From IMG/VR virus record IMGVR_UViG_3300045988_055837: DNA of 64,000 nucleotides; one strand, written 5' to 3'. The notes beneath the pieces were generated by a model. The model did no database searches. It was not told the origin of the DNA and saw only the letters and a list, made by a program, of their open reading frames with translations. Shown here one piece after another: positions 9,767 to 58,093 of this stretch (its first letter is position 1; each line of letters starts with the position of its first letter). This stretch comes from a virus. The position numbers and the translations under genes were made by a program.

Positions 9767-11671
9767 ATGTTTGAGTATCTTAATGACATGGATTTTCTAA
9801 CCTAGTTAGATAAACTGCATATGCGAGTATAGTATGCAAAGATTATCCTCCTTTCTTTCAAGGACGAAGAACCTATTAAAGAGATTTAGGGTTCTATCAC
9901 GAGTGGCAACTTGAGCGTTAATGGTTCTTCCGCAATTAGAAGAACCATTAACCTTACTATGCTTGCTTCTATTGATAATAGTAATCTTGAGGATATTGAT
10001 AATGAGATTTCTATTAACAAGAAGATTAAAGTTTTAATTGGTTATGATAATCCATTAAAGTCTTATAAGAATTATGGAGATATTATTTGGTTTCCTTGCG
10101 GCTTGTTTGTTCTATCTTCTGCCAATATTAGTCGCTCTACCAGCGGTTGGAATATTTCTATTACTGGTAAAGATAAAATGTGTCTATTGGATGGAACCGC
10201 GGGCGGCACCTTGCCGGCGTCAGTAACCTTCCATGAAAGTCTTGTTTAGCTTGATAATGGAGACGTAGAGATTCAATATCCTACTATCTTTCAAATTATC
10301 TATGAAGCGGTAAATCACTGGGGTGGAGAAGCTATTGAGAATATTATCATTACTGACATTGATGAAGAGATTAAGATGTTAGTAAGATATATGGGAGATA
10401 AGCCAGTATATTTCTCCAATGACTACTAGAGTTTAAGCTTTGAAGCGCAAGCAGATTATCCGCATATGTTTAGTTATGGACAAGATGCTGGATATAAGTA
10501 TACCGACTTTACCTATCCAGGAGAGTTGGTATTAAATGCAGGAGACACGGTAGTAACTCTATTAGACAAGATTGTTAGCACTCTTGGCAATTATGAATAT
10601 TTCTATAATATAGATGGCAAGTTCGTATTTCAAGAGATTAAGAATTATCTTAATACCGGCAGTCCGCTATTAGAGTTAAGTCCAGAAGATTATGTACGGT
10701 CATATAATAATGCAAAGTTTTTATACTCGCTTACCGATCTTGACACGACAACCGCGATTACCCGCAATCCTAAGTATGATAATGTGAAGAATGACTTTTA
10801 TGTTTGGGGCAAGCGTAAGACTTCAACAGGCGTAGAGGTGTCTATCCGTTATCATCTTGCTATTGATGATAAGCCAGATATTGACTTAGCTATGTAGAAT
10901 ATGTGGGAAGTCAAAGATAAAGAATCTAACCTTATTGTGCGTTATGATTTCAATACTCTTGATGAATACAGCGTGGATGGTTATGTAGTTACCTTAGTAG
11001 GTACTCCATGCGACGAGTGGAGAGAAGAGCTATACCGTCGTGCTCTTAATGCTTAGGTATCTAATAGTGTCTATGATAACTATTATGATTCAGAGCTAAT
11101 TGCGGAGTGGCGTAATCTATATAATCCAATGAACAAGAATTGGGATGCTACAAATCATTGGAACCCAGATGTATTTAATGACCCAGGTTCTATTAACTTC
11201 TGGCTAGATTTTATAGATACTAGTTCCGCTCTCGGTAAGTATTCTATTAAGAATATTGGCCGTAGGACTAAAGTCGTTAATAATAATGACATAAAAACCG
11301 TATATAATAGCGAAGTTCCTGATGTTGTATTTATTGAAGGATTAGATTAGGACTTGATTGTTAAATATCAAGGGATTGGTTAGAGATTCTTTATTCTAAC
11401 CAATGAATACTATGATATGTTTTCAATAAGCACTACTGGAACTAGTTGCTTTGACCAAATTCGAGAAATGATGTATTAGAATTTATGTTATAATACTACT
11501 ATTTCTTTAACCTGTTTGCCGAAATATTATATAGAGCCTAATAATATAATTAGGGTTGAAGATAAAGATAGCAATATCTATGGTAATTATCAAATTACTC
11601 AATATTCTCTACCTCTTACTTATAATGGCACTATGAGTATTACTGCAACAGAAGTTTTAACACGAGTATAA
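9767..11671 (+). CDS. Baseplate or tail protein of about 634 aa. TAG-rich.
   Basis: Ribosome-binding site aaaggagttaatattc then ATG at 9767. Frame joins track ORFs 9911, 10466 and 11129. Stops at TAA 11669-11671. Confidence 0.5.
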
Positions 11672-12275: not shown

Positions 12276-14195
12276 ATGCAATCTTTCTACGGAGGTCCTG
12301 CTGGACAGAGCTTCGAGATTAAAAAGATATTTGAGTCTTATTACGGTCCTGATGGAGCGCAAGTTGACTTAGATAAAGGATGGGCATCTCCTATCTCTGT
12401 GGGCGAATTTGTTATGGTGTCTTATGGCTTGCCATCTGACGCTACATACATGACTCGCATGAACTATGACTTAAATGCGGGTGACAAGAAAAACTTAAAC
12501 TCTACTTTATGGTAGAAAGTATATGACGAGTCTGCGGGAGAAGGAAGTGGCCTTAGCTATAAGCTCATTTCTTCTTGCACCGGTAATACTCCAAAGATTA
12601 GTATTACAAAACCCGCAATCGTGCTTCATGCGAATGAACAGCCAGACATTGAAACTGATTTATCTAACCAAGATATGCCAGTTATTCAATTTAAGTTGCC
12701 AAGAGCATAGGTATTGTCAATGCCGCAAGAAGCAACCGTTTTAAATGCGGATGAAAAGCCAAGTGTTGAATATAACGATGATGATATTGACCACCCAACC
12801 GTGCATTTTAATATTCCGCAGTCTCAAGTAATTGATTAGGTTACAGTTGATGTGATTGGTGTTGGGGAAGAACCAAAGGTCAGACTTGACTTAACTGATA
12901 TTAACCGACCTGTACTTAAATTCCAACTACCTGTAGCTCAGGAATTTTTAGACAGTAACATTCTTCACGAAGTATTAAATGCTAATGCTGAGCCAACTGT
13001 AAGTTTTGGTTATAGCGAAGAAGATACTCTTCACAAGCATCCTATCTTGACATTCTCTCTGCCTCGTAGCCAAGTAATGGCTGCACCAGAGACGATTACT
13101 AGAGCGCCAGACTTTGAGCCTAAAGTAACTAATGTTGGAACGGTCAATGAACCTAAATTACATTTTGAATTGCCTCGTGCGGTTAAGTTCTATTATGGTA
13201 GCTTGTTAGGGCAAAGAACCAATAAAACATATACTCTTACCGATCCACTTTTCGCCAATTATGGAGTTGGAGATTACTATATCAATGAAGCTACTGGTTT
13301 TATTTATAAAGTAACTAGTAAGACAGATGATACTACTTGTGTCTTTGAATATCAAGCAAGTATTCAGCAACCGCTACCAGTGGTCAACGCTAGTGCTATC
13401 GCTCCTTATATCGAAGGTGACGAAGGATTTAAACCTGCGGTTCCGCAAGTTGAAAGGAAACTAACAAACGCGGAAGGTACCGAATGGCAGCTTGAATTTA
13501 AGCTTCCATAGGCTCCGAAGCCCGCGGTTTCTTCTACTTTTGTTGGTTCGACAGAGCAAGGGTCTGTCACTTCTGCTATTACTAGTGAAGACACAGTAAC
13601 CTTTACTTTCAAGATTCCAACTGGTAGTAAGCTATTTGCAGGTCTTGAGATTACTGCTGATGGAGCAACTACTGCTATTGATGGCGCTAGAATTGGAGAT
13701 ATTTATCTCAATAGCGAAACCGGTGTTTTATATACTTTAACCGCTAATGGATGGAAAGCTAGTGAGAAGAGTATTAAAGGTCCTGTTGGGGATGCTCTTA
13801 ATATTGAAGCTGAATATCATTTAACTGAAACTGCGGAGTTTGCTGCTAGTTTAGCCAATGGTGTCACCTATATTCAGGAACACTATTCTGGTACTATTGA
13901 TTCTCATAAAATCTTTGCTATTACTTGGGCTTTGCTTGGTAATGGCGGAGATGTATCTTACTGGTATTATAAAACTAATGCTGGTGAGTGGGATAGAGCG
14001 CAATTAACTGGTGGCGTTTCTAGTTTAATTGAGCAGTCTTACAAGGAAAATGTTGACAATAAGACTTACTCAATCAATTATATTAACTCGCTAATTGGCG
14101 GCGACGGAGATACATCAAAAACGGCTTATTCTAAAGATTAGGTATAGAGCCTTGTTTCATGGGGATCTTTCCAAGACCTTATAGAAAAGCCTTGA
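12276..14195 (+). CDS. Tail-fibre-like protein of about 639 aa. The N-terminal half is built from tandem ~40-aa repeats of a PxxxFxLP(R/V)xQ motif.
   Basis: Ribosome-binding site taaggaggtatagac then ATG at 12276. Repeats seen directly: VIQFKLPRAQ, VHFNIPQSQV, LKFQLPVAQE, LTFSLPRSQV, LHFELPRAVK. Stops at TGA 14193-14195. Confidence 0.5.
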
Positions 14196-14214
14196 TTAAA
14201 GGGAGGATTTAATA

Positions 14215-14997
14215 ATGGCTTTATTTAAGATTTATAAAGGTGAGGAAGAGCTTCTCACTCAAATTCCCATGCATGAGGGATATGCCTATTTCTGCGAAGA
14301 TACAGGCAATCTATTTATTGACATTTCTAATAGTGCTGGTGGACGCGTTCAAGTTAACGCATATGCAGCTTCTATTTTGAAGAAAGATACCAAAGAAATC
14401 GACATTGATGATATCTTTCTTACTAATATGACTGCTACTGTTGCACAAGGTGGTACTGGACAGAAAACCTTGACAGTTAATGCTTTACTACTCGGTAATG
14501 GTACTGATGCAGTTAAGATGGTATCTATCGAGAAAGGTGCTATTGTAACTGGAGATTCTACTGATGGCGTCTCTGGTTTGTTAGGTACTGGAGCATTATT
14601 TGCAGATGTTTCTGGCGTTCCAAAGTTCGGTACTCTACCTATTAAAGCTGGTGGTACCGGTGCTACAACTGCGGCGGCCGCGAGAGCTAACCTAGATGTA
14701 TATAGTAAGAGCGAGACAGATAATAAGATGGATGAAGTAACTACCGTCTCTTATACTGCTACTCTTGCTCAAGCTAACTGGGTACATTCTGGAGATACTT
14801 ATACCTATTCTTATAGCAATACTAATTTGAAGTGTGGCAAGAATGGTAATGTACCTCCAATCATTTCTTGGATTAGTAATCATGATGATTATAATAAGAT
14901 TGATGACGCACAGGCAACTGTTGGCTCTGGAATTACCTTCACTGCTAGTAAGGCTATTGAGGGAGATATTGAAATCGTCATTATCGACGTGAAATAA
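14215..14997 (+). CDS. Tail-fibre-like protein of 260 aa. Gly/Thr/Ala-rich and TAG-free.
   Basis: Intact ORF with ribosome-binding site aaagggagga. Fibre-like composition. Confidence 0.45.
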   Translation: MALFKIYKGEEELLTQIPMHEGYAYFCEDTGNLFIDISNSAGGRVQVNAYAASILKKDTKEIDIDDIFLTNMTATVAQGGTGQKTLTVNALLLGNGTDAVKMVSIEKGAIVTGDSTDGVSGLLGTGALFADVSGVPKFGTLPIKAGGTGATTAAAARANLDVYSKSETDNKMDEVTTVSYTATLAQANWVHSGDTYTYSYSNTNLKCGKNGNVPPIISWISNHDDYNKIDDAQATVGSGITFTASKAIEGDIEIVIIDVK

Positions 14998-15007
14998 ACA
15001 AAAAAAA

Positions 15008-15056
15008 TAGGGGAGAACCTTTTAATTAAGGTTCTCCCCTATTTTTCGTTTTAATG
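15008..15056. terminator. Bidirectional rho-independent terminator: aggggagaacc-ttttaattaa-ggttctcccct flanked by A- and T-runs
   Basis: Perfect 11-bp stem seen in sequence between convergent genes at 14997 and 15051. Confidence 0.6.
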
Positions 15057-15500
15057 GCAAACTTTGTCTTTAAGATGGTAGTGCGGAATTTCCTCGTCAA
15101 ACCATTTCCAACGGAGATAGTCGTCGAGGAAGATAGCTATAAGAGCTAATCCGAACCACGCGAGTGAGAAAGGAAGACAAACTTGCCCCAATATATTGAA
15201 AGGTAAGTTTGAATAGTCCCAAATTCCTAGCTTTAGGACTAGATTCAAAATTACGCCGAATACAAATTCAAGTGAGGTAACTATTGCGGCTCCAATAGCC
15301 CCTTGTTTAATGATAGACATTTCCCAAGGTATAACCTCGTTTATCTCTCCAATAAGAACGAAACAAAGTCCGCCTAGGAGAAACATTGACCAATGTATCA
15401 TACCTCCACTAATGAAGGTCTTAAACAAGAACTCTATAATAAAATAGAGAGAACCTCCAACAGTGAATAAGGTAAGAAACTTATTCAGTTTAGTCCGCAT
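15051..15500 (-). CDS. Integral membrane protein with about 4 transmembrane helices
   Basis: Hydrophobic ORF. The real ATG at 15500 overlaps the stop of the upstream gene. Confidence 0.45.
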   Translation of the reverse strand: MRTKLNKFLTLFTVGGSLYFIIEFLFKTFISGGMIHWSMFLLGGLCFVLIGEINEVIPWEMSIIKQGAIGAAIVTSLEFVFGVILNLVLKLGIWDYSNLPFNILGQVCLPFSLAWFGLALIAIFLDDYLRWKWFDEEIPHYHLKDKVCH

Positions 15501-16146
15501 AATCAAGCTCTACCTGTTCTAGCTCCTCTAAAGAAGCTGCTCCATAAATAGAGATTTTATACTACTGCATTTGACGATACATTGGATATACAGCCGCAGA
15601 GATGGACATAGACAATGCAACAAGATTTTCTAATGTCCAAGGCTAGCACTCTTCGTGTCGAGCGTGCCATTCCAGAGTTGGAGATTCAATACCTGCCTGA
15701 ACGGCGATCTGATATTGACTTAAGTTAAGACTAATCTCAGATTGATCCTCCATTGTAACTCCATATTCTTTTCCATCTGTCCATGTTAATGGATGAGAAG
15801 CAAGATACTCTGCGAAAAGTAGCTTGTTCTTCTTTTGCTTAAGCTCTTTAGCTTCATCTAAACTATAACGATAAACAAAACTCTGAGTTTCATTGTCGAA
15901 TTTATATAGATTAGGTGTAACATTGGATGGAATTTCTTCAACTTCGATAACGCGAACTGCGTTAGGAGAGTTGATTGTATCAGCTTGAATTAAGACATAA
16001 TGAGTGTCGCAATCAGAGCCAATAACCCCAGTGCCTTCTTCTTCTGAACAGGCAACGACAATACCATTAGAAGATTGCAGTTTAATGTAACGAAGATTGT
16101 CGAGAATATCAACTACAATATTCCCGCGATTTAATAATACATACAT
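15490..16146 (-). CDS. Hypothetical protein of about 218 aa, translationally coupled to the DGR RT (TAATG overlap). Reads through TAG at 15643-15645.
   Basis: Track ORF 15643..16146 continues in frame past TAG to TAA at 15490-15492. Its ATG at 16146-16144 overlaps the RT stop TAA at 16148-16146. Confidence 0.45.
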
Positions 16147-17378
16147 TACTTTATTTCAACTCCTTTGAATAGTGAACGAAAATAATTATCCATATCTTGG
16201 ATAATATAGAAGCTAGATCCTTTAGCGATATGTGCTCTCCAACCTTGATAAGATTTCTGAATTTCTTCAGTAGGAATTTTACCTTGTTGCCATAGAGCAG
16301 CCATTTTACGCAATTTTCTGCGCTAATGAACAATCTTTTTCTTAAAAGGTATCTAGATTACATGATTTGTAGTAGTTAGATAGAAATTCCATTTAAGATA
16401 CTTAAATGGAGTGCCATGAACCTTATCTTTAGGTGCGATAGGAGCAATGCGCGAGATAGTGGTTTTCTTCTAATTAAGAGTAAGACCTATATCTTTTAAT
16501 TTCTTCTCTATCTTAGCTTTACATTCTGCTAAGTATTTACTATCGTTACATAGAAGATAAGAATCATCCATATAGCGTCCATAATACTTAATATGTAATT
16601 CTTCTTTAATGAAATGGTCAACTTCGTTCAAAGCTAGCAATGCAAATAACTGTGATGTCTAACTGCCTAGTCCAAGACTTTTAGCTTCACACTCATAATA
16701 TTGGTGATGCGGCCGGAAAGACTGGATATCCGCAGGTATATATTTTCTACCTTTAGCAATATAATACTATTTACCCGGAATTGGTTGCTTATCTTTTGTT
16801 AGCTTAAAAGAAAATGTATCAATTAGGTATGAGCATAATTCATAGACTTGAGGATCTTTAATAACACGCTTAGCGATTTCTTTAAGAGCCTCATGGTCGA
16901 TAGAATCAAAGTATTTACGAATATCAATTCGTAAAGCAAAGAAATCGTTTCCTAATCCGTACTCTCTATGAGCCATCTGTAAATGTTTCTTTGCTCTTGC
17001 TAAAGCAAAATCTATACCTCTATTTTTAAGCGTTGCACAGTTATCATAAATAAACTTAGGAGTTAATTCTGGTAGTAAGCTCTATTCACATAGGGCATTT
17101 TGTACCAGTCTGTCGTTGATATGACACGCTCTTATATCTCGTGGCTTACCTCGTTCAATGATTGAGAAACAACTAAACACAAGCTGCTTGTATTCACAAG
17201 CTCGCAAATCGGCTTCTGTTTGTAAGATTGTTTCAATTCTATTCTCTTCAAAATTGATTGTACTATCTTTCCATCGAACAATTCGACAAACTCGATAAGA
17301 GGAATCATATAATGCGTCAAAACTACAAAAACGCTCGAAAGATGTCTACTACTAACTCAACTTCTTTCTCCTTATCAT
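16146..17378 (-). CDS. DGR reverse transcriptase of about 410 aa with about 10 in-frame TAG
   Basis: Minus strand translated by hand. N-terminal FERFCSFDALY. IERGKPRDIRACHINDRLVQNAL. FALRIDIRKYFDSIDH. GLGSQTSQLFALLALNEVDHF (the DGR-RT-specific SQ/LNE motif). YYGRYMDDSYLL (YMDD). WQQGKIPTEEIQKSYQGWRAHIAKGSSFY. Ribosome-binding site ataaggagaaag precedes ATG 17378 (alternative TTG at 17363). The 60-aa track ORF 16151..16333 is an off-frame artefact inside this gene. Confidence 0.85.
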
Positions 17379-17621
17379 ACAGTAATAGCGGTCACTTCGC
17401 GAGTTCCGCATCTGTAATCGTATTCATTTATCCGTCGCAAGGACGAAATAGTCAAGTTCTCCTTAGATGAAAAGGCATCTACCTATAATATACTATTTAA
17501 TAATATGTTCTATTCCTTCTCCTTCTTAGTCCACAGAAGTGAACCAATGCATCCAGAATAAACCATAATTAGATGGACAATAATATATTCTGGGGTACTA
17601 TTCTAGGTGTTGCTCGTCTGC

Positions 17622-17634
17622 GCTGCTTCGCAGC
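17622..17634 (-). other. GC hairpin gctgc-gaa-gcagc (minus-strand sequence) immediately 3' of the TR, in the TR-RT spacer
   Basis: Seen in sequence. DGR spacer RNAs are structured and involved in cDNA priming. Confidence 0.3.
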
Positions 17635-17664
17635 TTGACTTGCAACGTGATAGCTCCATCTAAT

Positions 17665-17764
17665 CCGGCGCGAGGCCATTGCTGTTGTTGTAGTTGTTGT
17701 TGTTCGCGTTCCCGTTGTTGTTGACATTGCACACGTTGTTCGAGTTGTTGTAGTTGCGCGAGCG
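17665..17764 (-). repeat. DGR template repeat (TR) of 100 bp, AAC/Asn-codon rich on the minus strand
   Basis: 86/100 identity to 18393-18492. All 14 mismatches are T on the + strand, which is A on the coding minus strand of this copy. They lie at + positions 17679, 17680, 17686, 17688, 17694, 17700, 17709, 17718, 17721, 17722, 17727, 17728, 17737 and 17755. Confidence 0.9.
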
Positions 17765-17796
17765 AAAAATACAGAACTTGACATCTTGTAAAATCA

Positions 17797-18291
17797 TTAC
17801 CGACCTCTTCTATAACTCTTTGACTTCTAGTAGGAATGCTCGTAGATTAAATAATCTCGATTAACTCTATCCTATAAAGTTTCCTTCATAGCTTTTGTTA
17901 AACGAGCAAGATGCTCAAAAGAGCGTCGTTTCTTCTGATTGGTCTATGCGTATTCGAAGATACAGAGATCGATTTGACGAAAGATACTATCACAATAAGC
18001 GATAGCCTAATTCCAATATTTCTTTCGTGCAATTAGAGTTTCCTAACTATTCAAGTAGATTTCACTAGCTTGATAGCAGGCGGCATGTATGCCTTTTCCG
18101 CATTTAATAATATCTAACCCGAAGGCTTGGAAAGGTTGTCCCTCTCCAAGCAATCCGGGCTTTTTAACTTGTTTTCCAGATTCGTCAAACTCTCTAGGAC
18201 GAGTTAAGACTAAAATGTAATTTACCAGTTCGCGTGATTTCTGGAGACATTCACGCTTGGATTTATGTCGATCTTTTGTTTTTACAGACAA
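17797..18291 (-). CDS. Avd-like accessory ORF between the target gene and the TR. Small and basic. Reads through 5 TAG.
   Basis: Track ORF 18043..18291 continues past TAG at 18043-18045 to TAA at 17797-17799. Position and size fit DGR accessory variability determinants. No sequence motif recognised. Confidence 0.4.
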
Positions 18292-18372
18292 AATTAACGC
18301 CTTCCTTTCTCATTATTTATATGAGAAAACTGGCTAACATTTTAATCTATGCTGCCCCACCTTTGAAAGTTT

Positions 18373-20148
18373 TTAATTACCAATGACGAAAGCCGGCGCG
18401 AGGCCAAAGCTGTCGCTGTAGATGTTGCTGTTCGCGCTCCCGTTGCTGCGGACACGGCACACGTAGTTCGAGTTGTTGTAGTAGCGCGAGCGCTCCCATG
18501 GATAACCGTAGCTACTTGTGGATGTATCTCCTAAATACATGATGCGTGTAGCATTACTGGTATAATAACTATACGCAAAATTCTTACCCTAAGTACACTC
18601 TGCTTTTGATGTAGTAGAATTGGCAGTAGAAAGAGGAGAATAAGTATCAAGACCAAATTCTCTTTCAGAAAGCAAGAATACTGTTTCGTCATTATAAGTT
18701 ACATTTTGATTTCTGTCATCATAATTGGGGCAAGTACCTTTTTTAATTGTCTTAATGGCTGCTTTACCGGGGAAGGCATTATAGTAATTTTGACACAGGC
18801 TTCTAGCTGTAGAACCAATCCAAACTGCATTACTACCAAAAGTAGTATATTGACTTAAACAGTTTTTAGTCTGGAATGTAACTGTATTATTAGCATCTTG
18901 ATCTACGCCAATAACTCTAATTAAGTGAGTAGTAGTACCTAAAACTGCGCTTGAAAGAGTTACAGATTTAGTTGTGCCAAGAATAGAGCCACCATTACTA
19001 GTTCTAATAGATGAACCAGAATTAGAAGCTAAATAATTCTTTAATCCATTAAACCACGCTGCATCAACAGTTCCACCATCTGCACCCCAAGACCAATATT
19101 CTGCACTAACGGTAATAGTCTTATTGGCAGGAGCAGTATGGTTAGTACCTGCGGCGACACTAATAGTAATAGTTTTTGCGGAAACCGCGGTAGAACCATT
19201 ACCTTTAATAGTAAGAGTATTACCATTAAGAGATAGAGTCAAACCAGAAATACTGGTAGGACTATAACTAATAGCACCATCGCCCGCGCGAGTAATAGTA
19301 ACAGCTACGCCGGAACTATAGTTATTGCCATTGATAGCTACTGTTGTTGGGTTTACGCTCAAACTACCTGTTGCTTTGTTGATTGTCCAGTTGACATTGA
19401 TTGCGGATGTTGTTCCGTCTGCCCAGCGATAATTGCTTCCTGGTGTAAAGGTAGCAATATAAGTGCCAGCATTAGTTGCAGATGTTGTGCCACCGATAGT
19501 CATGTAACTAGTATTGTAGTTATTCCAGTAGCTGGTGCTACTAACTGATTGCGCGCTTCCAGTATATGTAAGATTACTCTTCCACGTAGGTTTAGCTACA
19601 GACTTACGATTGACTGTGACATTAAAAGTCGTAGTTTGAGTAACTCCATTTTCTGTGTAGCTAACTGTAACTACTTGATTTCCAACAGTTGAAAAAGTTG
19701 TTGGAGAACAAGAGTAACCAGTTACAGTTTTAGTTTGAGAATCGGAATAACTAGCTGTCACTACCATACCCGCGGTAGCAAGAGTATCTCCATACTCATA
19801 AGTCAACTTATTGGGTTTAGTAGTTACAGTAATTGCGGAGAGCCTATGCGTGACCGTGACCGCTAGAGTCGTAGTACAAGTTTCTCCACCCTCAGAGTAA
19901 GTGATGGTTACGGAAGTAGTACCATCAGTTAAGACGCTAGGGGATACAGAATATCCACTAACTTCTGCGGTTGCTAGAACCGCTTGCCCAGTACCATAAG
20001 ATGCAGTAACGACCATACCGGCGCTATTGAAGCTGTCGCCCGCAAGATAGCTGGTCTTAGTAGGTTTAGTGGTGACTTCGATCTTCATAAGAACGATGCC
20101 GCTTCCTCCACCTTTTCCGCCTTGCTCAGCTAAAATACACTTAGGCAA
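18373..20148 (-). CDS. DGR target protein: two Big_2 Ig-like domains plus a C-terminal C-type-lectin-fold variable domain. About 591 aa from TTG at 20148.
   Basis: Track ORF 18589..20292 continues through TAG 18589-18591 into the VR and stops at TAA 18373-18375. Repeated TTKPxKxxYxxGDxLxxxGMVVTASY Big_2 units. Ribosome-binding site gaaggagg lies 8 nt before TTG 20148. The longer upstream extension to 20292 looks non-coding. Confidence 0.8.
18393..18492 (-). repeat. DGR variable repeat (VR) at the 3' end of the target gene
   Basis: Paired with the TR. At TR-adenine positions this copy carries C, G or A. Encodes ...YGYPWERSRYYNNSNYVCRVRSNGSANSNIYSDSFGLAPAFVIGN, a C-type-lectin-fold VR signature. 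Confidence 0.9.
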
Positions 20149-20402
20149 GATTATAACCTCCTTCGTATCTAGCTCTTTTAAAAATGCCAAAAGATTTTCC
20201 GAGAAAAAGTACACTTTTTTATGGGAAAAATACTCCCAGAAACTAGATAATAAAAAATTGGGAAAAAGGTATAGAAACCCTTTTCCCTTCAAGTAGGTAT
20301 CTTACCTTTTCAGATATACATAAAAAACAAGCTAAGAAAATTATTTATGATTGACCAAAGCCCAGTTAAGTGTACTTTTTAGAAGATGAAAGGAGAATTA
20401 AA

Positions 20403-21797
20403 GTGAGCTTAAAATGTATTTTACAAGGTCAATAGACTAGCTCATTTCTAGCTTTTACTATTCCTAAAGGCCGAATGCGCGGCGATATAGATGGCGATGG
20501 TAAAATTACGGAGAATGATAGAAATCGAATAAGCGAACACTTAGGTGGTACTATAACACTAACGGGTGCTGATTCATGGTGTGCAAAGGTTACTGGTAAT
20601 AATGAAATTTCCGTATCAGACCTCGTACAGCTGATGCAATACCTTGAGGGAAAAACCAATAATCTTACTGGTATTCCTACGTTTGCTGATTACTACAATA
20701 ACTGGACTTATCACAAGGTAGACGACCTTACTGGTTACTGGACGACAGAAGTTGTAATCAATGGATTAAAAACAATAAATGATGCAATAGTAAATATTGG
20801 CAATGATGAAGGTATCTTTTATAAGAGCGAATTAAGTGATGGTGCTATTCGTTTCTATGCTACTCGTCCTCCAATCGCAGAAGTTCCTGCTACCATTACT
20901 TTTAAATCTGGTACTGGCGTAATAACAACTTCCTATGAGTCTGCTAAATTCCATGCTTCTACGCATAGTAAAGATGGAGCAGATCCTATTACACCAGAAT
21001 CCATTGGAGCGCTTTCTCTTTCTGGCGGAACAATGACCGGGTCTTTAGTCTTAAGTGATGATCCCGCAGAAGATTTAGAAGCGGCGACTAAACAATATGT
21101 AGATAATCATACTTCTGATACAGTACTTTACACGCCGCAGACCCTAGCCGATGAGCAGAAAACTCAGGCGAGAGGCAACATCGGAGCGGCACCGGATGGA
21201 TTTGGGTTGGGAGACATAGGCAAACGACTTACCCCGGAAGATAATCTTGATTAGGTAAAAACGAACGGGTGGTATCGTTGGGAGAGAAGTACACCGCCTC
21301 AAGGGACATTACCCTCCACAATCGGTCAATCTATGGATGCCACTTTAATTAGAGTTTGGGGCAATGGTGCCGTATGCTATCAAGAATCCATAAATATAAC
21401 TGACGATTCTAGGCATGGATGCCTTTGCGTAAGAACAATTTATGATTCAACCATTTTCCCTTGGGAATGGGTCAACCCACCCATGGAGTCAGGCGTAGAG
21501 TACCGCACCACGGAGCGGTTCTAGGGAAAATCGGTATATTATAAAATCGTTGATTGTGGACAGATTGTGGACAATAAACAGGTGGAGCATGGAGTTGCGA
21601 ATATGCGAGATTGCATATTTTGCCAAGGACTGCGTGGCGCTATGCCAATGCCTAGCATTTCCAATAATGATTTGTCAGACCCATGGAGCTATTATGTTGC
21701 TGACGTTAATCGTACAAAAATCACACTTGCGTGCGGCACAACGGCGGCAGGAGGTAATTGTCATGTAATACTCAAATACACCAAAACTACAGATTAA
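20403..21797 (+). CDS. Tail fibre of about 464 aa with an N-terminal dockerin-like double calcium-binding module and the conserved SGGTMTG...ATKQYVD fibre motif. 3 in-frame TAG.
   Basis: Ribosome-binding site gaaaggaga then GTG at 20403. DIDGDGKITENDRNRI and ISVSDLVQLMQYL dockerin-like loops. LSLSGGTMTGSLVLSDDPAEDLEAATKQYVDNH. Frame joins track ORFs 20475, 21333 and 21567. Stops at TAA 21795-21797. Confidence 0.6.
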
Positions 21798-21808
21798 GGA
21801 GGGGCACC

Positions 21809-22408
21809 ATGAAACTCATCAAATATCAACTTTGCACGGAGATTAACCACGGTACAGAGGATGAGCCGCAGATTGAGCAGGTTTTCTCCGCTGTCACACT
21901 TGGTTGGAGCGAAGTCAATGAGGAAATCGCCAAAGCGGAAGCCTACAACGGCAAGTATACCATTGAAGAAGAGCCAGATAATCGTCCATTCGAAGAAATT
22001 CAAACAGAGAAACTATCTAATCTCTCAGAAATTTGCAATCAAACTATCGTCGCTGGCATGGACGTAGAAACAACAGAAGGTATGGAACATTTTAGTCTTG
22101 AAGAAACAGATCAAATTAACTTAACGACAGCTTTATCTGCAATTGAACAAGGAGCTAAGGGATATCCCTACCATGCAGATAAGAAGTTATGCCGTATGTT
22201 TACCGCTGTAGAACTTAAGGCTATTGCAGAAAAGGCTACCGCACATAAACTATACCACACGACTCTTTGTAATCACCTCTTAATTCTAGCAAGACGTGCA
22301 ACTACAACCGCAGAATTAGATAAAATTACTTATTCTGCGGATTGCCTTCCTCCTGATCTCGCAGAGAACATGAAGAAGATTCTAGTTGCGGCTGGGATTA
22401 CTGAATAA
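21809..22408 (+). CDS. Hypothetical protein of 199 aa, possible fibre assembly or chaperone. TAG-free.
   Basis: Ribosome-binding site aggagg then ATG at 21809. Position after the fibre gene. Confidence 0.4.
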   Translation: MKLIKYQLCTEINHGTEDEPQIEQVFSAVTLGWSEVNEEIAKAEAYNGKYTIEEEPDNRPFEEIQTEKLSNLSEICNQTIVAGMDVETTEGMEHFSLEETDQINLTTALSAIEQGAKGYPYHADKKLCRMFTAVELKAIAEKATAHKLYHTTLCNHLLILARRATTTAELDKITYSADCLPPDLAENMKKILVAAGITE

Positions 22409-22420
22409 TTTTACCAAAAA

Positions 22421-22453
22421 ATTTGGCAAAGTTGTTAAATCAACTTTGCCAAA
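22421..22453. other. Perfect palindrome TTGGCAAAGTTG-TTAAAT-CAACTTTGCCAA. Terminator and/or recombinase or regulator site.
   Basis: 12-bp arms seen in sequence between the fibre-assembly gene and the serine recombinase. TTGGCAAA recurs twice at 23563-23590. Confidence 0.4.
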
Positions 22454-22480
22454 TTTTCATTATATAATGAGGTGATAAAG

Positions 22481-23086
<606 letters not shown>

Positions 23087-23135
23087 TCAATCTTCCTTTT
23101 GTTTGATATATTATATACAATAAGGAGGAATTATT

Positions 23136-23519
23136 ATGCCAGAAATTGTGATTCAGATTATCCAGGTATGTGTTATTCCTTTGCTCGGTATTTTGACTAA
23201 ATATCTCGTTGACTACTTGACTGCTAAGCGCAATGAGATTAACTCTAAGACCGATAATGAGACTGCTCAGAAGTACACTAATATGATTTATCAGACTGTT
23301 GTTGATTGCGTTATTGCAACCAATCAAACTTATGTAGATAGCTTGAAGAAATCTGGAAGCTTCGATGAAGCAGCTCAGAAGGAAGCATTTAACCGCACAA
23401 TGAACGCTATTATGACTATTCTAAGTGACGATGCTAAGGAATATATTACCGAGGCTACAGGTGACTTGAATACTTATCTCACTCAGTTAATTGAGGCTGA
23501 GGTTAATAAGCGCAAATAA
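23136..23519 (+). CDS. Putative holin of 127 aa: one N-terminal transmembrane helix plus a hydrophilic C-terminus (LL-H-like architecture)
   Basis: N-terminal transmembrane helix VIQIIQVCVIPLLGILTKYLV. Ribosome-binding site aaggagg. Terminator follows. Confidence 0.3.
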   Translation: MPEIVIQIIQVCVIPLLGILTKYLVDYLTAKRNEINSKTDNETAQKYTNMIYQTVVDCVIATNQTYVDSLKKSGSFDEAAQKEAFNRTMNAIMTILSDDAKEYITEATGDLNTYLTQLIEAEVNKRK

Positions 23520-23526
23520 CAAGAAA

Positions 23527-23560
23527 AAGGGAGCCTATTAGGCTCCCTATATTTTTTTTC
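23527..23560 (+). terminator. Rho-independent terminator gggagcc-tatta-ggctccc followed by T8
   Basis: Seen in sequence. Confidence 0.55.
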
Positions 23561-23664
23561 AAAAAAATTGGCAAAATTTTTGGCAAAAATGTAAAATCGT
23601 CCATAGACGATTTTCATATACTAATGAAAGGTCAAAGGAAATATTTTTTAGGAGGTAAAAAATT

Positions 23665-24063
23665 TTGGCAACTAATTATCCATACTATCCACAGCAACCT
23701 ATGTATCCAAGACCAGGTATTCAATATGTGGATCAGACCTAGCCGCAAATGGGTATTAAAGGCCGGCCTGTATCTTCTATTGAAGAGGCCCGCGCCATTA
23801 GCATTGATTTCGATGGCTCTGTATTTTATTTTCCTGATTTAGCAAATAGACGTATTTATACTAAGCAAATAAACATGGATGGCACAGCCAGTCTTAATGT
23901 TTATGAGCTAAAGAATGAGCCAGTCGTCAGCTCTCCTCAGTATGTTACTAGAGAAGAGTTTGAGACTACATTAGCGCAATTAAAACAAGCTATGTTAGGA
24001 AAGGAGTCAGAATCTCAGTCCGCACCGGCATAGCCGCAGTAGACTGAGAAATTTAAGTTTTAA
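23665..24063 (+). CDS. Hypothetical protein of about 132 aa with a Pro/Tyr/Gln-rich N-terminus
   Basis: Ribosome-binding site aggaggtaaaaaat then TTG (alternative ATG at 23698). Frame joins track ORF 23749..24033 through TAG. Stops at TAA 24061-24063. Confidence 0.35.
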
Positions 24064-48114: not shown

Positions 48115-48426
48115 TCAGTTATCGTCTCCCACAGTATTTGTGTATCCTACAATGTTGAATTGATTGAGCCAGCTATCTAGTTCATCAATAACAGCAATAC
48201 ATTTCATACCTCTAGCTTTTGTTAGAAAATATCCATAGCTAATAAATCCTAAATTTTGCGGTAGATTACGCTCTTTTGTTAACTCTAAGAACTTTTTAAC
48301 CATCAGTTGAGGATGTTGAGTAACAAAGAGTACCATCTTATCAGGATACTTATGTGCTAAATCATTTGCGTAGTACATTAAGCTAGTTGTCTTACCTGCA
48401 CCACGACTTGCAATTACCTTAAACAT
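48115..48426 (-). CDS. Small P-loop NTPase of 103 aa
   Basis: Walker A ASRGAGKTT. Confidence 0.4.
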   Translation of the reverse strand: MFKVIASRGAGKTTSLMYYANDLAHKYPDKMVLFVTQHPQLMVKKFLELTKERNLPQNLGFISYGYFLTKARGMKCIAVIDELDSWLNQFNIVGYTNTVGDDN

Positions 48427-49343
48427 TATGAACCTCCACGAGTTCCATTCATACCTAGTTCTTTAGTCTTATAGAACTCAATCCAATAAGTCTCTCGTTC
48501 ATTTAACTAATCTCTAGGCACTTCTTCCAAAATCTCAAATATAAAATTATATTGACCAGATTTTTGCATCGCCTAATATAACTTATTAGTCACAGGTCCG
48601 TATGCTAAAGAGGTTTTAATGTGCTGTCTAAAACGCTCTTTAATATCAACAGACTAACCAATATAAGCCTAACCAGTTGTTAGATCGGTAATCTTATAGA
48701 TACCGCATACTTTACCTTTATTAGTGGCAAATAGATGCGTCATAAGAATATCATATGCAGGACGATAATAGGTCTCCCATATTACTTTATCAATGATTTC
48801 CTTTTTCACAAAGTGAATTTGCAAATCACGCAATAGAGTAATATCGTTCAAACTAAATTCATCAATAGCAAGACGATAATAGTCCTAATCTGCGGCAATC
48901 GCTTCTTGGCGTTGCTAAGCCTAGATATAAGACAACTATTTAGCTTCTAATTCGTGAAGTTTGTCTTGCTGATGAGAGATTTGATTAGTTATCTATTGAA
49001 GTTCTGCTAAATGATACTTTTCTTTGGCTTGATATGTTTCATCCAGCTCTTTAGTTTTCTTTTCAAATTGAGCTCTAGCGCTCTCTTCTGCTCGCTACTC
49101 AGCGCTTTTCCGCAACTTATTCGCAGTATCATTCAAAGAATTGACAATTTCATTATGTGATACAATATCTTCTTTTACTTTTGCTAATTCTCTCTATTTC
49201 AATGCAATATCTTGTTCAATGCGTTTATTCTCTTCTTGTCTTTCTTTATTTATCAATACTACCTAAAGCCGATTATTGCGAAGATATAAAACATATCCAA
49301 TCAGCGCAAGAATAACCAAGCCTGATAATATATAATAAATCAT
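48424..49343 (-). CDS. GIY-YIG nuclease domain fused behind an N-terminal transmembrane helix and a ~150-aa coiled coil. About 306 aa with about 12 in-frame TAG.
   Basis: Hand translation. N-terminus IYYILSGLVILALIGYVLYL. C-terminal CGIYKITDLTTGQAYIGQSVDIKERFRQH...NERETYWIEFYKTKELGMNGTRGG. Track ORF 48669..48851 is a fragment. Stop TAA overlaps the ATG of the downstream NTPase. Confidence 0.55.
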
Positions 49344-56686: not shown

Positions 56687-58093
56687 TTATTGACCACTCT
56701 TTTCAGCATAACGCTTTAGAACAGCCGCAAATTCGCCACGAGTCATAAAGCGTTTTGGCATCAACTGACCTTTTTCATTGCCATTGATTAAGCCATTAGC
56801 CTGTGCCCAAGTCATTGCGTCTTGCTCCCAGGTGACTGGTTGCGCAGCGAGCTGACTAAGATATACATTCATCATTTCATTGAATTTTTCTTGAGTCATG
56901 TCTTCATCATCCTCCTCGATAACTTTAGACTGCATTAAAGCAGCAACATCTTTGCGAACGGTTGTCATATCTTTGCCATATTTCTTGAACCAATGGTATA
57001 CATCAGCATGGTTACTACCGAGACCCAACTGATAGCTATCTTGATGGCAGAGAATGGTTGGAACTGTTACGCCATTTACATTTACAGAACCATTTGGATT
57101 GATATTATATGTCTTACATAAGTAGGCTGTCAATTCGCAAGCCTCTTTGTAGACTTTAGCGAAGTAATCGGGGTCACTTAGATTGTCTTCGCAGATTTCA
57201 AACTGAATCCATCCAGTATTACAGCTACCTTTAGAGCCTGAGCCGCAACCCCAAGGTCTATAATTCCAAGGTAGTGTTTGTACTGCGGCTACGCTTCCGT
57301 CAGCAAGAGCACCAATCCAAGCGTTTACACCAGCCTGCTATGAGCTATGATTCCAATCGGTTCTACTGGTATTTTTACCAATTTTAGTAATCAGAGATTG
57401 ATAGTTCTTGTCGTTCTCAGATGGTTGAACATAACGCTTAATAGTTTTATTATTGGCGCCTGTACTGTGCCAGAGGACGCCTTTAATATCCATCTTGCGG
57501 GTTTGCTTATAACAAGTGCTATTAGTCATCATGCAAACCAATGGGTGATTAGCGTTTGAATATTTCATCTTAGCTATTTCCTCCTTTTGCGTTGAATAAA
57601 TATTGAAGTAACGTTGGCTATATAACGCACGCTATTTTAGTGTGCTAGAGCTCTGATCTGCCGGTCTTTCAAACTGAGTGACCACCAAATTAGATGCTTC
57701 TTCAACAGATGAGGTAGTCTTCAAGATTTTTAATAGCTAGGAGTAACTTGTAGTTAGTTCCTGATATAAAAAATCTAGTTGGGTGTTTAAGTCACCAATA
57801 GACTTTCCTCGACTTTTACACAGCTAAAACAGACCTTGCTTGCGGCTCCAATATGTCCATTGAGCTAAACCATATCCCGCAGAATCATGCGTGAAATTGG
57901 TATAGGAGCCATTATCAACAGCCGCAGTATACGAGGCATCGTTCATTCCTAACTTACTCTCATATGAGTTCTATAAGTTAGTTGGAATAAGTCCGCTTTC
58001 CGCGAATAGATTCCCCATTAGACCTGCGGCACCGCAGTTACTTAATCCTTTTGATTTAAGATAATCCCAAATAACTTGAGCATTATCCGCCAA
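56687..58093 (-). CDS. Modular endolysin of about 468 aa: N-terminal lysozyme-like (phage lysozyme2) domain, central Amidase_2 (N-acetylmuramoyl-L-alanine amidase), C-terminal SLH cell-wall-binding domain. At least 7 in-frame TAG.
   Basis: AAGLMGNLFAESG in the N-terminal domain. IKGVLWHSTGANN amidase motif. GLINGNEKGQLMPKRFMTRGEFAAVLKRY is an SLH motif. Track ORFs 57338..57568 and 56687..57133 are in one frame. An internal ribosome-binding site plus ATG at 57568 could also give an amidase-SLH-only product. Confidence 0.6.

What the first reader, a model, noticed from the sequence alone, without database searches (positions are those of the whole stretch)
16146..20148. Complete diversity-generating retroelement: target(VR)-avd-TR-RT on the minus strand
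Two 100-bp repeats (TR 17665-17764, VR 18393-18492) are 86% identical. All 14 differences are at adenines of the TR copy on the coding (minus) strand, the hallmark of DGR mutagenic retrohoming. The TR is AAC-codon rich (RSRNYNNSNNVCNVNNNGNANNNNYNNSNGLAP). The VR forms the C-terminal end of a protein with two Big_2 domains and a CLec-type ending (...SFGLAPAFVIGN*). A reverse transcriptase carrying the DGR-specific SQLFAxxxLNExDHF motif and a YMDD box lies immediately downstream of the TR. A small basic Avd-like ORF lies between the target and the TR.
Basis: seen in the sequence. Interest (0 to 1): 0.9.

Follow-up and report, generated by a model that had tools for sequence, protein, structure and literature searches.

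The report
Active DGR in a TAG-recoded gut phage
This is a complete, evidently active diversity-generating retroelement that hypermutates the tip of a phage tail protein; its genes only make sense if the stop codon TAG is read as glutamine, and both features are already known in gut phages, so it is a good but ordinary example.

Summary
TR 17665-17764 and VR 18393-18492 (minus strand) differ at 14 of 100 positions, all at TR adenines (hypergeometric P = 1.4e-7).

The interpretation (target-avd-TR-RT) is supported, with one large omission and one small error.
- Omission: under the standard code the RT (9), Avd-like gene (5) and target (1) are all broken by in-frame TAG codons. TAG is a sense codon here. 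It is conserved in relatives and replaced almost only by CAG/CAA, so it encodes Gln. A tRNA(CUA) sits in a related contig that carries this same DGR.
- Error: the Ig-like repeats are Big_3, not Big_2. The VR lies in a C-terminal DUF6273 domain with a C-type-lectin fold.

Public contigs stand in for read pile-ups. 37 related human-gut contigs carry 37 different VRs. These show 682 differences from the TR at adenine sites and 3 elsewhere, while the TR is invariant. Genomes whose cassette differs by 0.74% differ at 51% of VR adenine sites.

The host genome is a roughly 145-kb phage, probably infecting Firmicutes, with TAG-rich late genes and TAG-poor replication genes. Recoded DGR RTs and DUF6273 targets are both published, so this is a new member of a known kind.

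The parts
18373..20088 (-). DGR target gene: 571 aa with TAG=Gln. Two Big_3 Ig-like repeats, further beta-rich repeats, and a C-terminal DUF6273 (C-type-lectin fold) domain. One in-frame TAG at 18589-18591, just upstream of the VR. Start taken as ATG 20088 (not settled).
18393..18492 (-). Variable repeat (VR): the last 33 codons of the target. Homology to the TR runs to 18390.
   Evidence: 14 of 14 mismatches to the TR at TR adenines. Across 37 flank-located VRs in related contigs: all unique, 682 mismatches at A sites against 3 at non-A sites.
18393..18405 (-). GC-rich 3' end shared by VR and TR (GGCCTCGCGCCGG; the TR copy is at 17665-17677). TR/VR homology stops right after it. Proposed to be the IMH-like homing boundary.
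   Evidence: Alignment. Invariant in all relatives. The function is inferred by analogy with BPP-1.
17797..18291 (-). Avd-like accessory gene: 164 aa, TTG start, 5 in-frame TAGs, pI 9.7.
   Evidence: 85 full-length homologues. Codon-position variability 3>1>2 across relatives. AF2 of a 74%-identical homologue: pLDDT 90, four long helices. Best natural Foldseek hits 2rld/2gsc (four-helix bundles of the S23/IVP family), prob 1.0, TM 0.74-0.79, but E 0.1-0.2. No Pfam, NCBIfam, PHROG or PDB sequence hit.
17665..17764 (-). Template repeat (TR): 37 adenines in 15 AAC, 2 AAT, 2 TAC and 1 AGC codons. None of these can mutate to a stop.
   Evidence: Identical in 17 of 19 IMG/VR copies; the other two each carry one A>G. 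Entropy 0.004 bits per site.
17412..17664 (-). Spacer between TR and RT, presumed 3' part of the DGR RNA. The first ~120 nt are almost invariant. Predicted stem-loop at 17609-17646.
   Evidence: Conservation profile. RNA fold of the TR plus spacer: z = -1.88. There is no variation, so covariation could not be tested.
16146..17411 (-). DGR reverse transcriptase: 421 aa (or 410 from the second Met), 9 in-frame TAGs. GxxxSQ motif (G-S-q-T-S-Q, with one TAG inside it) and YMDD.
   Evidence: RVT_1 7.7e-16. PHROG_1423 8.9e-83. Best PDB sequence hit 8ub7_A at 1.9e-12. 31-35% identity to RTs of known DGR phages. 137 of 151 TAG positions conserved in relatives, 14 replaced by CAG/CAA. Codon-position variability 3>1>2.
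15051..16146 (-). Two co-oriented ORFs directly downstream of the RT: 15490-16146 (218 aa, no family) and 15051-15506 (PF06541-type membrane protein). Conserved with the cassette. Not shown to belong to the DGR.
15003..15046 (.). Perfect 19-bp inverted repeat between the convergent minus-strand DGR block and the plus-strand tail-fibre gene. Probably a bidirectional terminator that closes the block.
   Evidence: I1, 100% complementary, 6-nt loop.

Best explanation
A canonical, currently or very recently active diversity-generating retroelement sits inside the tail-fibre module of a roughly 145-kb human-gut phage that reads TAG as glutamine.

Mechanism, with status of each step:
1. The avd-TR-spacer region is transcribed (inferred).
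2. The RT, helped by the Avd-like four-helix-bundle protein, copies the TR RNA into cDNA and misincorporates opposite adenines (inferred from the mutation pattern and from the BPP-1 paradigm).
3. The cDNA replaces the VR, with the shared GC-rich 3' end as the homing boundary (inferred).
4. This rewrites up to 20 codons on the ligand-binding face of the C-terminal DUF6273/C-type-lectin domain of an Ig-repeat tail protein. About 6e21 protein variants are possible, with no risk of stop codons (shown from the sequence).

Shown: the adenine-restricted pattern; its population-wide saturation; homogenisation of non-adenine VR sites to the invariant TR; intact, selected reading frames.

The RT has 9 in-frame TAGs and Avd has 5, so neither can be made until TAG is suppressed. 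A tRNA(CUA) is encoded in the phage's tRNA cluster; it was seen in a related contig that carries this same DGR. Replication genes are TAG-poor. The DGR proteins are therefore most likely made only in the late, code-switched phase of infection (inferred).
For: TR/VR: 14 of 14 mismatches at adenines, P = 1.4e-7.

Population test with VRs located by flanks only: 37 contigs, 37 different VRs, 682 A-site against 3 non-A mismatches, all 37 A sites variable. Non-A VR sites have 0.009 bits of entropy, below the 0.218 bits of the adjacent target gene. The TR is invariant. VR A-sites differ at 51% between genomes whose cassette differs by 0.74%, with no correlation to divergence.

RT family. Avd-like fold and position. 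CLec fold; DUF6273 is a published DGR-target domain (PMC10743442, PMC11792537).

TAG = Gln: ORF coverage rises from 76% to 97%. 623 conserved in-frame TAGs. Replacements are CAG/CAA in 41 of 57 cases, and in 83 of 93 in the reverse direction. Purifying selection acts through the TAGs. TAG density is 1.16 per 100 codons in late genes against 0.24 in early genes. A tRNA(CUA) lies in contig 065542, which also holds this DGR.
Against: There are no reads, so heterogeneity within one population was not seen; the diversity is between assemblies from different samples. No sequence-level evidence ties the Avd-like protein to the Avd family, and the profile match to Shimadzu's Avd is weak. The hairpin downstream of the VR is not better than shuffles (z = -0.94). 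The suppressor tRNA is not in this window, and its amino-acid identity was not established from its sequence (91 nt, long variable region). The structure models are of homologues (74% and 88% identical), not of the window's own proteins. The RT has no obvious Shine-Dalgarno sequence, and its start codon is uncertain.
Confidence: 0.93

Rival explanations
1. Fossil DGR: the TR/VR pair is a relic, and the RT and avd are pseudogenes broken by stop codons, as a standard-code annotation would suggest.
For: In table 11 the RT splits into at least 5 ORF fragments, and avd and the target are truncated.
Against: All interruptions are TAG; none is TAA or TGA. They are conserved in-frame in up to 22 related loci and swap with CAG/CAA. 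Codon-position variability of 3>1>2 shows purifying selection across them. The same pattern holds for tail, baseplate and lysis genes throughout the window. VRs keep turning over between near-identical genomes.
Confidence: 0.03
2. The VR diversity comes from ordinary diversifying selection or recombination among tail-fibre alleles, not from retrohoming.
For: The neighbouring tail-fibre gene (about 20430-21960) is swapped or absent between relatives, so recombination does operate in this region.
Against: 682 of 685 VR/TR differences fall on TR adenines, at first and second codon positions of AAC/AAT. The 63 non-A sites are more conserved than the rest of the gene, as expected if they are repeatedly overwritten from the TR. 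Recombination or selection cannot produce base-specific variation.
Confidence: 0.01
3. The element is intact but inactive in this particular genome. For example, it may be silenced, or the VR may have been fixed after the last homing event, so the diversity reflects past activity in the lineage only.
For: Only one VR allele is visible in a single assembled window. One relative (L017) has a VR with a 21-nt deletion and non-A changes, and another (L033) has a 6-nt insertion, so some copies may be decaying.
Against: The window's RT, Avd, TR and IMH-like end have no defects. The closest relative (0.74% cassette divergence) already has a VR differing at 19 of 37 A sites.
Confidence: 0.1

Closest known systems
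Bordetella phage BPP-1 DGR (mtd-avd-TR-brt), the prototype
   Same: Gene order target(VR at 3' end)-avd-TR-RT. Adenine-specific TR-to-VR differences. AAC-rich TR. GC-rich shared 3' end of TR and VR. VR on a C-type-lectin fold. GxxxSQ and Y-x-DD RT motifs. The closest solved RT structure is 8ub7 (E = 1.9e-12), which I take to be BPP-1 bRT from my own knowledge.
   Different: The RT is 421 aa against 328. The target is Ig-repeat (Big_3) plus DUF6273, not Mtd. The Avd-like protein is 164 aa with no detectable sequence similarity to PF05635. No significant hairpin follows the VR. All three genes need TAG = Gln. The host phage is about 145 kb and from the gut.
DGRs of gut Firmicutes phages: Roseburia phage Shimadzu, Faecalibacterium phages Lelie/Toutatis/Roos/Pioen, phages nd4/nd12 (tentaclins)
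   Same: These have the best RT matches in GenBank phages (31-35% identity). Shimadzu has the same order, tail fibre(DUF6273)-Avd-RT. DUF6273 carries the VR at its C-terminal end and has a CLec-like fold (PMC11792537, PMC10743442).
   Different: Those are 33-55 kb phages, mostly temperate, in the records seen here, with RT and Avd annotated as uninterrupted genes. The RTs are only distantly related. In tentaclins DUF6273 is N-terminal and the Ig domains follow; here the order is reversed. The Avd profile match to Shimadzu's Avd is weak.
DGRs of TAG-recoded gut phages: infant-gut persisters I57/I79/I123_PsAC1 (bioRxiv 10.1101/2023.08.07.552389) and Zeta crAss-like phages (PMC12386605)
   Same: [quoted passage not shown] Suppressor tRNA(CUA) is present. 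Standard DGR finders miss the RT.
   Different: Sequence relatedness to those phages could not be tested here. Most Zeta crAss DGRs lack Avd and infect Bacteroidota. This phage's polymerase is nearest to Enterococcus and SPbeta-type Firmicutes phages (40%).

Membership tests
Diversity-generating retroelement (DGR) | TR/VR repeat pair whose differences are confined to TR adenines | tested here: met
   14 of 14 (15 of 15 over 103 nt) in the window. 682 against 3 across 35 full-length VR alleles.
Diversity-generating retroelement (DGR) | RT of the DGR clade (GxxxSQ motif, YxDD catalytic box) next to the TR | tested here: met
   The motifs were read in the TAG=Gln translation. RVT_1 and PHROG RT hits. 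Best PDB sequence hit is 8ub7, ahead of group II intron and retron RTs. The best phage hits are known DGR phages. No RT phylogeny was made.
Diversity-generating retroelement (DGR) | VR at the 3' end of a protein-coding target, on a C-type-lectin (or Ig) fold | tested here: met
Diversity-generating retroelement (DGR) | Avd accessory protein (basic four-helix bundle, PF05635 family) between target and TR | tested here: inconclusive
   Position, size, pI 9.7 and the predicted four-helix bundle fit. The top natural Foldseek hits, 2rld and 2gsc, are from the S23/IVP family, but E is 0.1-0.2. There is no Pfam, NCBIfam, PHROG or PDB sequence hit. hhalign to Shimadzu's Avd gives E 0.002, prob 13%.
Diversity-generating retroelement (DGR) | IMH at the VR 3' end (GC-rich stretch shared with the TR, then divergence) and a downstream hairpin/cruciform | tested here: inconclusive
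   The GC-rich GGCCTCGCGCCGG is shared, and homology ends after it. The only hairpin (18306-18328) is AT-rich, and the fold is no better than shuffles.
Diversity-generating retroelement (DGR) | Ongoing mutagenic retrohoming (VR turnover while the TR stays constant) | tested here: met
   Tested between assemblies, not within a population. 37 of 37 VRs are unique and the TR is invariant. 51% of A sites differ at 0.74% cassette divergence.
Diversity-generating retroelement (DGR) | TR-templated, adenine-mutagenic cDNA synthesis by RT-Avd | not testable with these tools
   This needs biochemistry or cDNA sequencing.
TAG-to-Gln recoded phage (genetic code 15) | Conserved in-frame TAG in essential genes, exchanged with CAG/CAA in relatives | tested here: met
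   623 conserved TAGs. CAG+CAA make up 41 of 57 replacements, and 83 of 93 in the reverse direction. ORF coverage rises from 76% to 97%.
TAG-to-Gln recoded phage (genetic code 15) | Phage-encoded suppressor tRNA(CUA) | tested here: met
   None in the window. Found at L136:3041-3131 in IMG/VR contig 3300045988_065542, which also carries this DGR (L022), and an identical copy in L133. Its charging identity was not established.
TAG-to-Gln recoded phage (genetic code 15) | Recoding concentrated in late (structural, lysis) genes, with early replication genes compatible with the standard code | tested here: met
   1.16 against 0.24 in-frame TAG per 100 codons. The tail genes and endolysin are TAG-rich. 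Polymerase, helicases, primase, ligase and topoisomerase are TAG-free.

The most novel reading that the evidence does not exclude
Recoding works as a translational gate on hypermutation. RT (9 TAGs) and Avd (5 TAGs) cannot be translated until the phage's tRNA(CUA) is expressed, so mutagenic retrohoming is confined to the late, code-switched phase of lytic growth, when many genome copies are present. It is impossible in any state where only the host code operates. The DGR's activity would then be timed by the genetic code rather than by a promoter.
Probability: 0.4. Interest if true: 0.5.

Novelty: new member of a known kind. Interest (0 to 1): 0.3.

Why it matters
It is a clean, well-populated natural example of an active DGR: one TR and 37 distinct VR alleles from independent human-gut samples. 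It targets a DUF6273/C-type-lectin receptor-binding domain, in a large uncultured phage lineage, probably of Firmicutes. It also shows concretely that standard-code annotation and DGR finders would score this element as a dead RT, so DGR surveys undercount recoded phages. The 37-allele set gives a ready map of which TR adenines are tolerated at the binding face. The idea that the code switch times DGR activity could be tested with this cassette. None of this changes current understanding; recoded DGR RTs and DUF6273 targets are already in the literature.

Tried and rejected
- Megablast of 14000-24000 against GenBank phages found no match.
- Sequence searches for the Avd-like protein against Pfam, PHROGs, NCBIfam and a PDB profile found nothing. 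The assignment therefore rests on fold and position.
- The hairpin or cruciform after the VR is no better than shuffled sequence.
- Rfam found nothing in the whole window.
- Covariation in the TR-RT spacer could not be tested because the region is invariant.
- A search for a second VR or remote target found none, either in the window or in related contigs, each of which has one TR and at most one VR.
- A scan of 185,579 bacterial and archaeal genomes for the TR/VR found none, so there is no prophage or host assignment.
- A test for invertase-driven inversion next to the DGR found no strand flips in 13 relatives.
- My first VR comparison was circular, because the search pattern fixed the non-A sites. 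I replaced it with flank-anchored extraction.
- I checked whether the DGR genes are unusually TAG-rich. They are not: 39-42% of their Gln codons are TAG, within the 33-67% range of the other TAG-rich genes.
- I considered that phAss-1-type recoded phages (PMC10607447) might be the same group. That paper reports no DGR, and no nucleotide or close polymerase match was seen.
Full report
**1. Observation**

The region contains one long direct repeat, 17662-17764 and 18390-18492, 728 nt apart. Read on the minus strand, the 100-nt core (TR 17665-17764, VR 18393-18492) has 14 mismatches. Every one is at an adenine of the TR copy: A>G 7, A>T 5, A>C 2. Extending by 3 nt adds a fifteenth, also at an A. 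With 37 adenines in 100 nt, the chance of this is 1.4e-7. A pattern with N at every TR adenine matches only these two sites in the 64-kb window, against 0 expected. Homology ends right after a shared GC-rich GGCCTCGCGCCGG.

**2.

Under the bacterial code none of the three genes is intact. The RT is split into same-frame fragments. The Avd-like ORF stops after 82 aa. The target stops 50 codons before its end, just upstream of the VR. All interruptions are TAG. Several lines show TAG is a sense codon:
- Treating TAG as sense raises ORF coverage of the window from 76% to 97%. TGA or TAA readthrough gives less.
- It yields a 421-aa RT (9 TAGs), a 164-aa Avd-like protein (5 TAGs) and a 571-aa target (1 TAG).
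- In related contigs the TAGs are conserved in frame (623 cases). When replaced, they become CAG or CAA in 41 of 57 cases. In the reverse direction, relatives' TAGs correspond to the window's CAG/CAA in 83 of 93 cases. CAA is two steps from TAG, so this points to glutamine.
- In both avd and RT, variability across relatives is highest at codon position 3 and lowest at position 2. These frames are therefore under purifying selection straight through the TAGs.

These are not pseudogenes or sequencing errors.

**3. Genome context**

The window is part of a phage.
- Positions 1-27 kb hold tail, baseplate and tail-fibre genes and a serine recombinase. They carry 1.16 in-frame TAGs per 100 codons.
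- Positions 27.5-56 kb hold a replication module: PolIII-alpha-type polymerase, Dda-like and DnaB-like helicases, primase, Sak4, ligase and topoisomerase II. It carries 0.24 TAGs per 100 codons.
- The endolysin has 5 TAGs.

The polymerase is 40% identical to those of roughly 130-140-kb Enterococcus and SPbeta-type phages. Related metagenome contigs reach 140-148 kb and come from human gut.

The window has no tRNA. Walking along related contigs found a cluster of about 29 tRNAs. It includes a 91-nt tRNA with anticodon CUA at L136:3041-3131, on IMG/VR contig 3300045988_065542. That contig also carries this DGR (L022). An identical copy lies in L133.

This is the published picture of code-15 phages, in which early genes are host-code compatible and late genes are recoded (PMC10607447, PMC10879173, PMC11210395).

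**4. The components**

*RT.* Pfam RVT_1 scores 7.7e-16 and the PHROG reverse-transcriptase family 8.9e-83. The closest solved structure by sequence is 8ub7 (328-aa RT, E = 1.9e-12), ahead of group II intron RTs at 3.5e-8. From my own knowledge 8ub7 is the Bordetella BPP-1 DGR RT; its IGSLTSQLFAN aligns with LGSqTSQLFAL here. The best annotated phage matches (31-35% identity) are phage nd12, Roseburia phage Shimadzu and Faecalibacterium phages; Shimadzu's record annotates tail fibre-Avd-RT, and nd4/nd12 and phage Lelie are described as DGR phages in PMC10743442 and PMC11792537.

*Avd-like protein.* It is 164 aa with pI 9.7 and has 85 full-length homologues. An AF2 model of a 74%-identical homologue shows four long helices at pLDDT 90. 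The best natural Foldseek hits are 2rld and 2gsc, four-helix bundles of the S23/IVP family to which Avd belongs (from my own knowledge). Probability is 1.0 and TM 0.74-0.79, but E is only 0.1-0.2. No sequence method links it to Avd. The profile match to Shimadzu's annotated Avd is weak, and that Avd also lacks a Pfam hit. I call it a probable Avd on position and fold.

*TR.* It holds 15 AAC, 2 AAT, 2 TAC and 1 AGC codons. About 6e21 protein variants are possible and no stop can arise.

*Spacer.* The 32 nt upstream of the TR, the TR itself and the first ~120 nt of the TR-RT spacer are nearly invariant among relatives. That fits a structured DGR RNA, but without variation there is no covariation to test.

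**5. Is it active?**

I had no reads, so I used public assemblies.
- An A-to-N pattern scan found the element in 22 IMG/VR loci and 27 human-gut metagenome loci. It found none in 185,579 prokaryotic genomes.
- That pattern fixes the non-A sites, so I re-extracted VRs using only their flanks.
- 37 VRs were recovered, and all 37 differ from one another.
- In the 35 of full length there are 682 differences from the TR at adenine sites and 3 elsewhere. All 37 adenine sites vary, with 13-29 changes per VR.
- Non-adenine VR sites are more conserved (0.009-0.02 bits) than the adjacent target gene (0.218 bits). This is expected if the VR is repeatedly overwritten from the invariant TR.
- The avd-TR-RT cassette is 96-99% identical between contigs, yet VR adenine sites are saturated. 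The window and L011 differ by 0.74% over the cassette and at 19 of 37 A sites. A-site difference does not correlate with divergence (r = -0.06).

**6. Mechanism and rivals**

The best explanation is canonical mutagenic retrohoming that diversifies the CLec face of a tail receptor-binding protein. One further inference follows from the recoding. RT and Avd can only be translated after the phage's amber suppressor is available, so the DGR behaves as a late function.

The rivals are contradicted or given low probability, as detailed in their own sections: a fossil element with a pseudogenised RT; recombination or selection instead of retrohoming; and an element that is intact but silent in this genome.

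**7. Novelty**

This is a new member of a known kind.
- DGR RTs with multiple in-frame TAGs next to recoded tail proteins were reported in infant-gut persister phages (bioRxiv 10.1101/2023.08.07.552389) and in Zeta crAss-like phages (PMC12386605).
- DUF6273 targets are known.
- The phage lineage has no close relative in GenBank phages.
- The DGR genes are not more TAG-rich than other TAG-rich genes of the window.

Interest is modest. It is a textbook-quality example with a useful allele series, and a reminder that standard-code pipelines would misread it.

Noticed in passing
whole window; 1-27580 against 27580-56300: TAG is read as glutamine throughout. In-frame TAG density is 1.16 per 100 codons in tail, baseplate and tail-fibre genes against 0.24 in the replication module. 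The endolysin (56687-58018) has 5. Standard-code ORF calling covers only 76% of the window.
   Followed up: yes
L136:3041-3131 and L133:12986-13076 (related contigs, outside the window): The amber-suppressor tRNA(CUA) is 91 nt, with a U1.U72 mismatch, G73 and an unusually long variable region. It sits in a cluster of about 29 tRNAs. It is unclear how such a tRNA would be charged with Gln.
   Followed up: partly
L125:1768-1841, L136:4959-5035 and 11258-11331 (related contigs): Two conserved tRNA-like genes have 8-nt anticodon loops (ARAGORN calls them 'taaa' and 'tgtt'). They could be frameshift or ochre-type decoders, or non-functional.
   Followed up: no
window about 22481-23086 (+): A complete small serine recombinase or DNA invertase (Resolvase domain 1.4e-28, 7 in-frame TAGs, non-ATG start) lies right after the tail-fibre genes. 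No inverted segment was seen in 13 related loci.
   Followed up: partly
window about 20430-21960 (+), gene 20475-21797: The tail-fibre-like gene with an N-terminal dockerin domain, divergently placed next to the DGR target, is replaced by unrelated sequence or absent in most relatives. This is a second, recombination-based variable spot beside the DGR.
   Followed up: partly
window 48426-49343 (-): A 305-aa ORF with 12 in-frame TAGs lies inside the otherwise TAG-poor replication arm. It has a coiled-coil N-terminus and, by eye only, a GIY-YIG-like C-terminus (GIYKITDLTTGQAYIGQS). Possibly a homing endonuclease.
   Followed up: no
TR positions 14, 74 (TAC codons) and 82 (AGC) = window 17751, 17691, 17683: These three adenines are changed in fewer than 10% of the 35 VR alleles, against 35-89% for adenines in AAC/AAT codons. 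The cause could be selection for Tyr/Ser or a context effect on misincorporation.
   Followed up: no
L017 and L033 (VR); L004 and L014 (TR): One relative has a VR with a 21-nt in-frame deletion plus non-A changes, and another has a 6-nt insertion. Two TR copies each carry a single A>G change.
   Followed up: no
window 15051-16146 (-): Two ORFs immediately downstream of the RT, in the same orientation, are conserved with the cassette: a 218-aa protein with no family, and a PF06541 (CmpB-like) membrane protein. Any link to the DGR is unknown.
   Followed up: partly
L051:1906-9931 (beyond the window's right end): A block of RNA-repair-type genes (RNA ligase, Thg1-like, AAA_33/KTI12-type kinase, metallophosphatases) lies between the window's right end and the tRNA cluster.
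   Followed up: no
window 56687-58018 (-) and 20475-21797 (+): The endolysin's precomputed Pfam hits include a weak SLH domain, and a tail protein has a dockerin domain. These hint at a Clostridia-type Gram-positive host. No host was identified.
   Followed up: no
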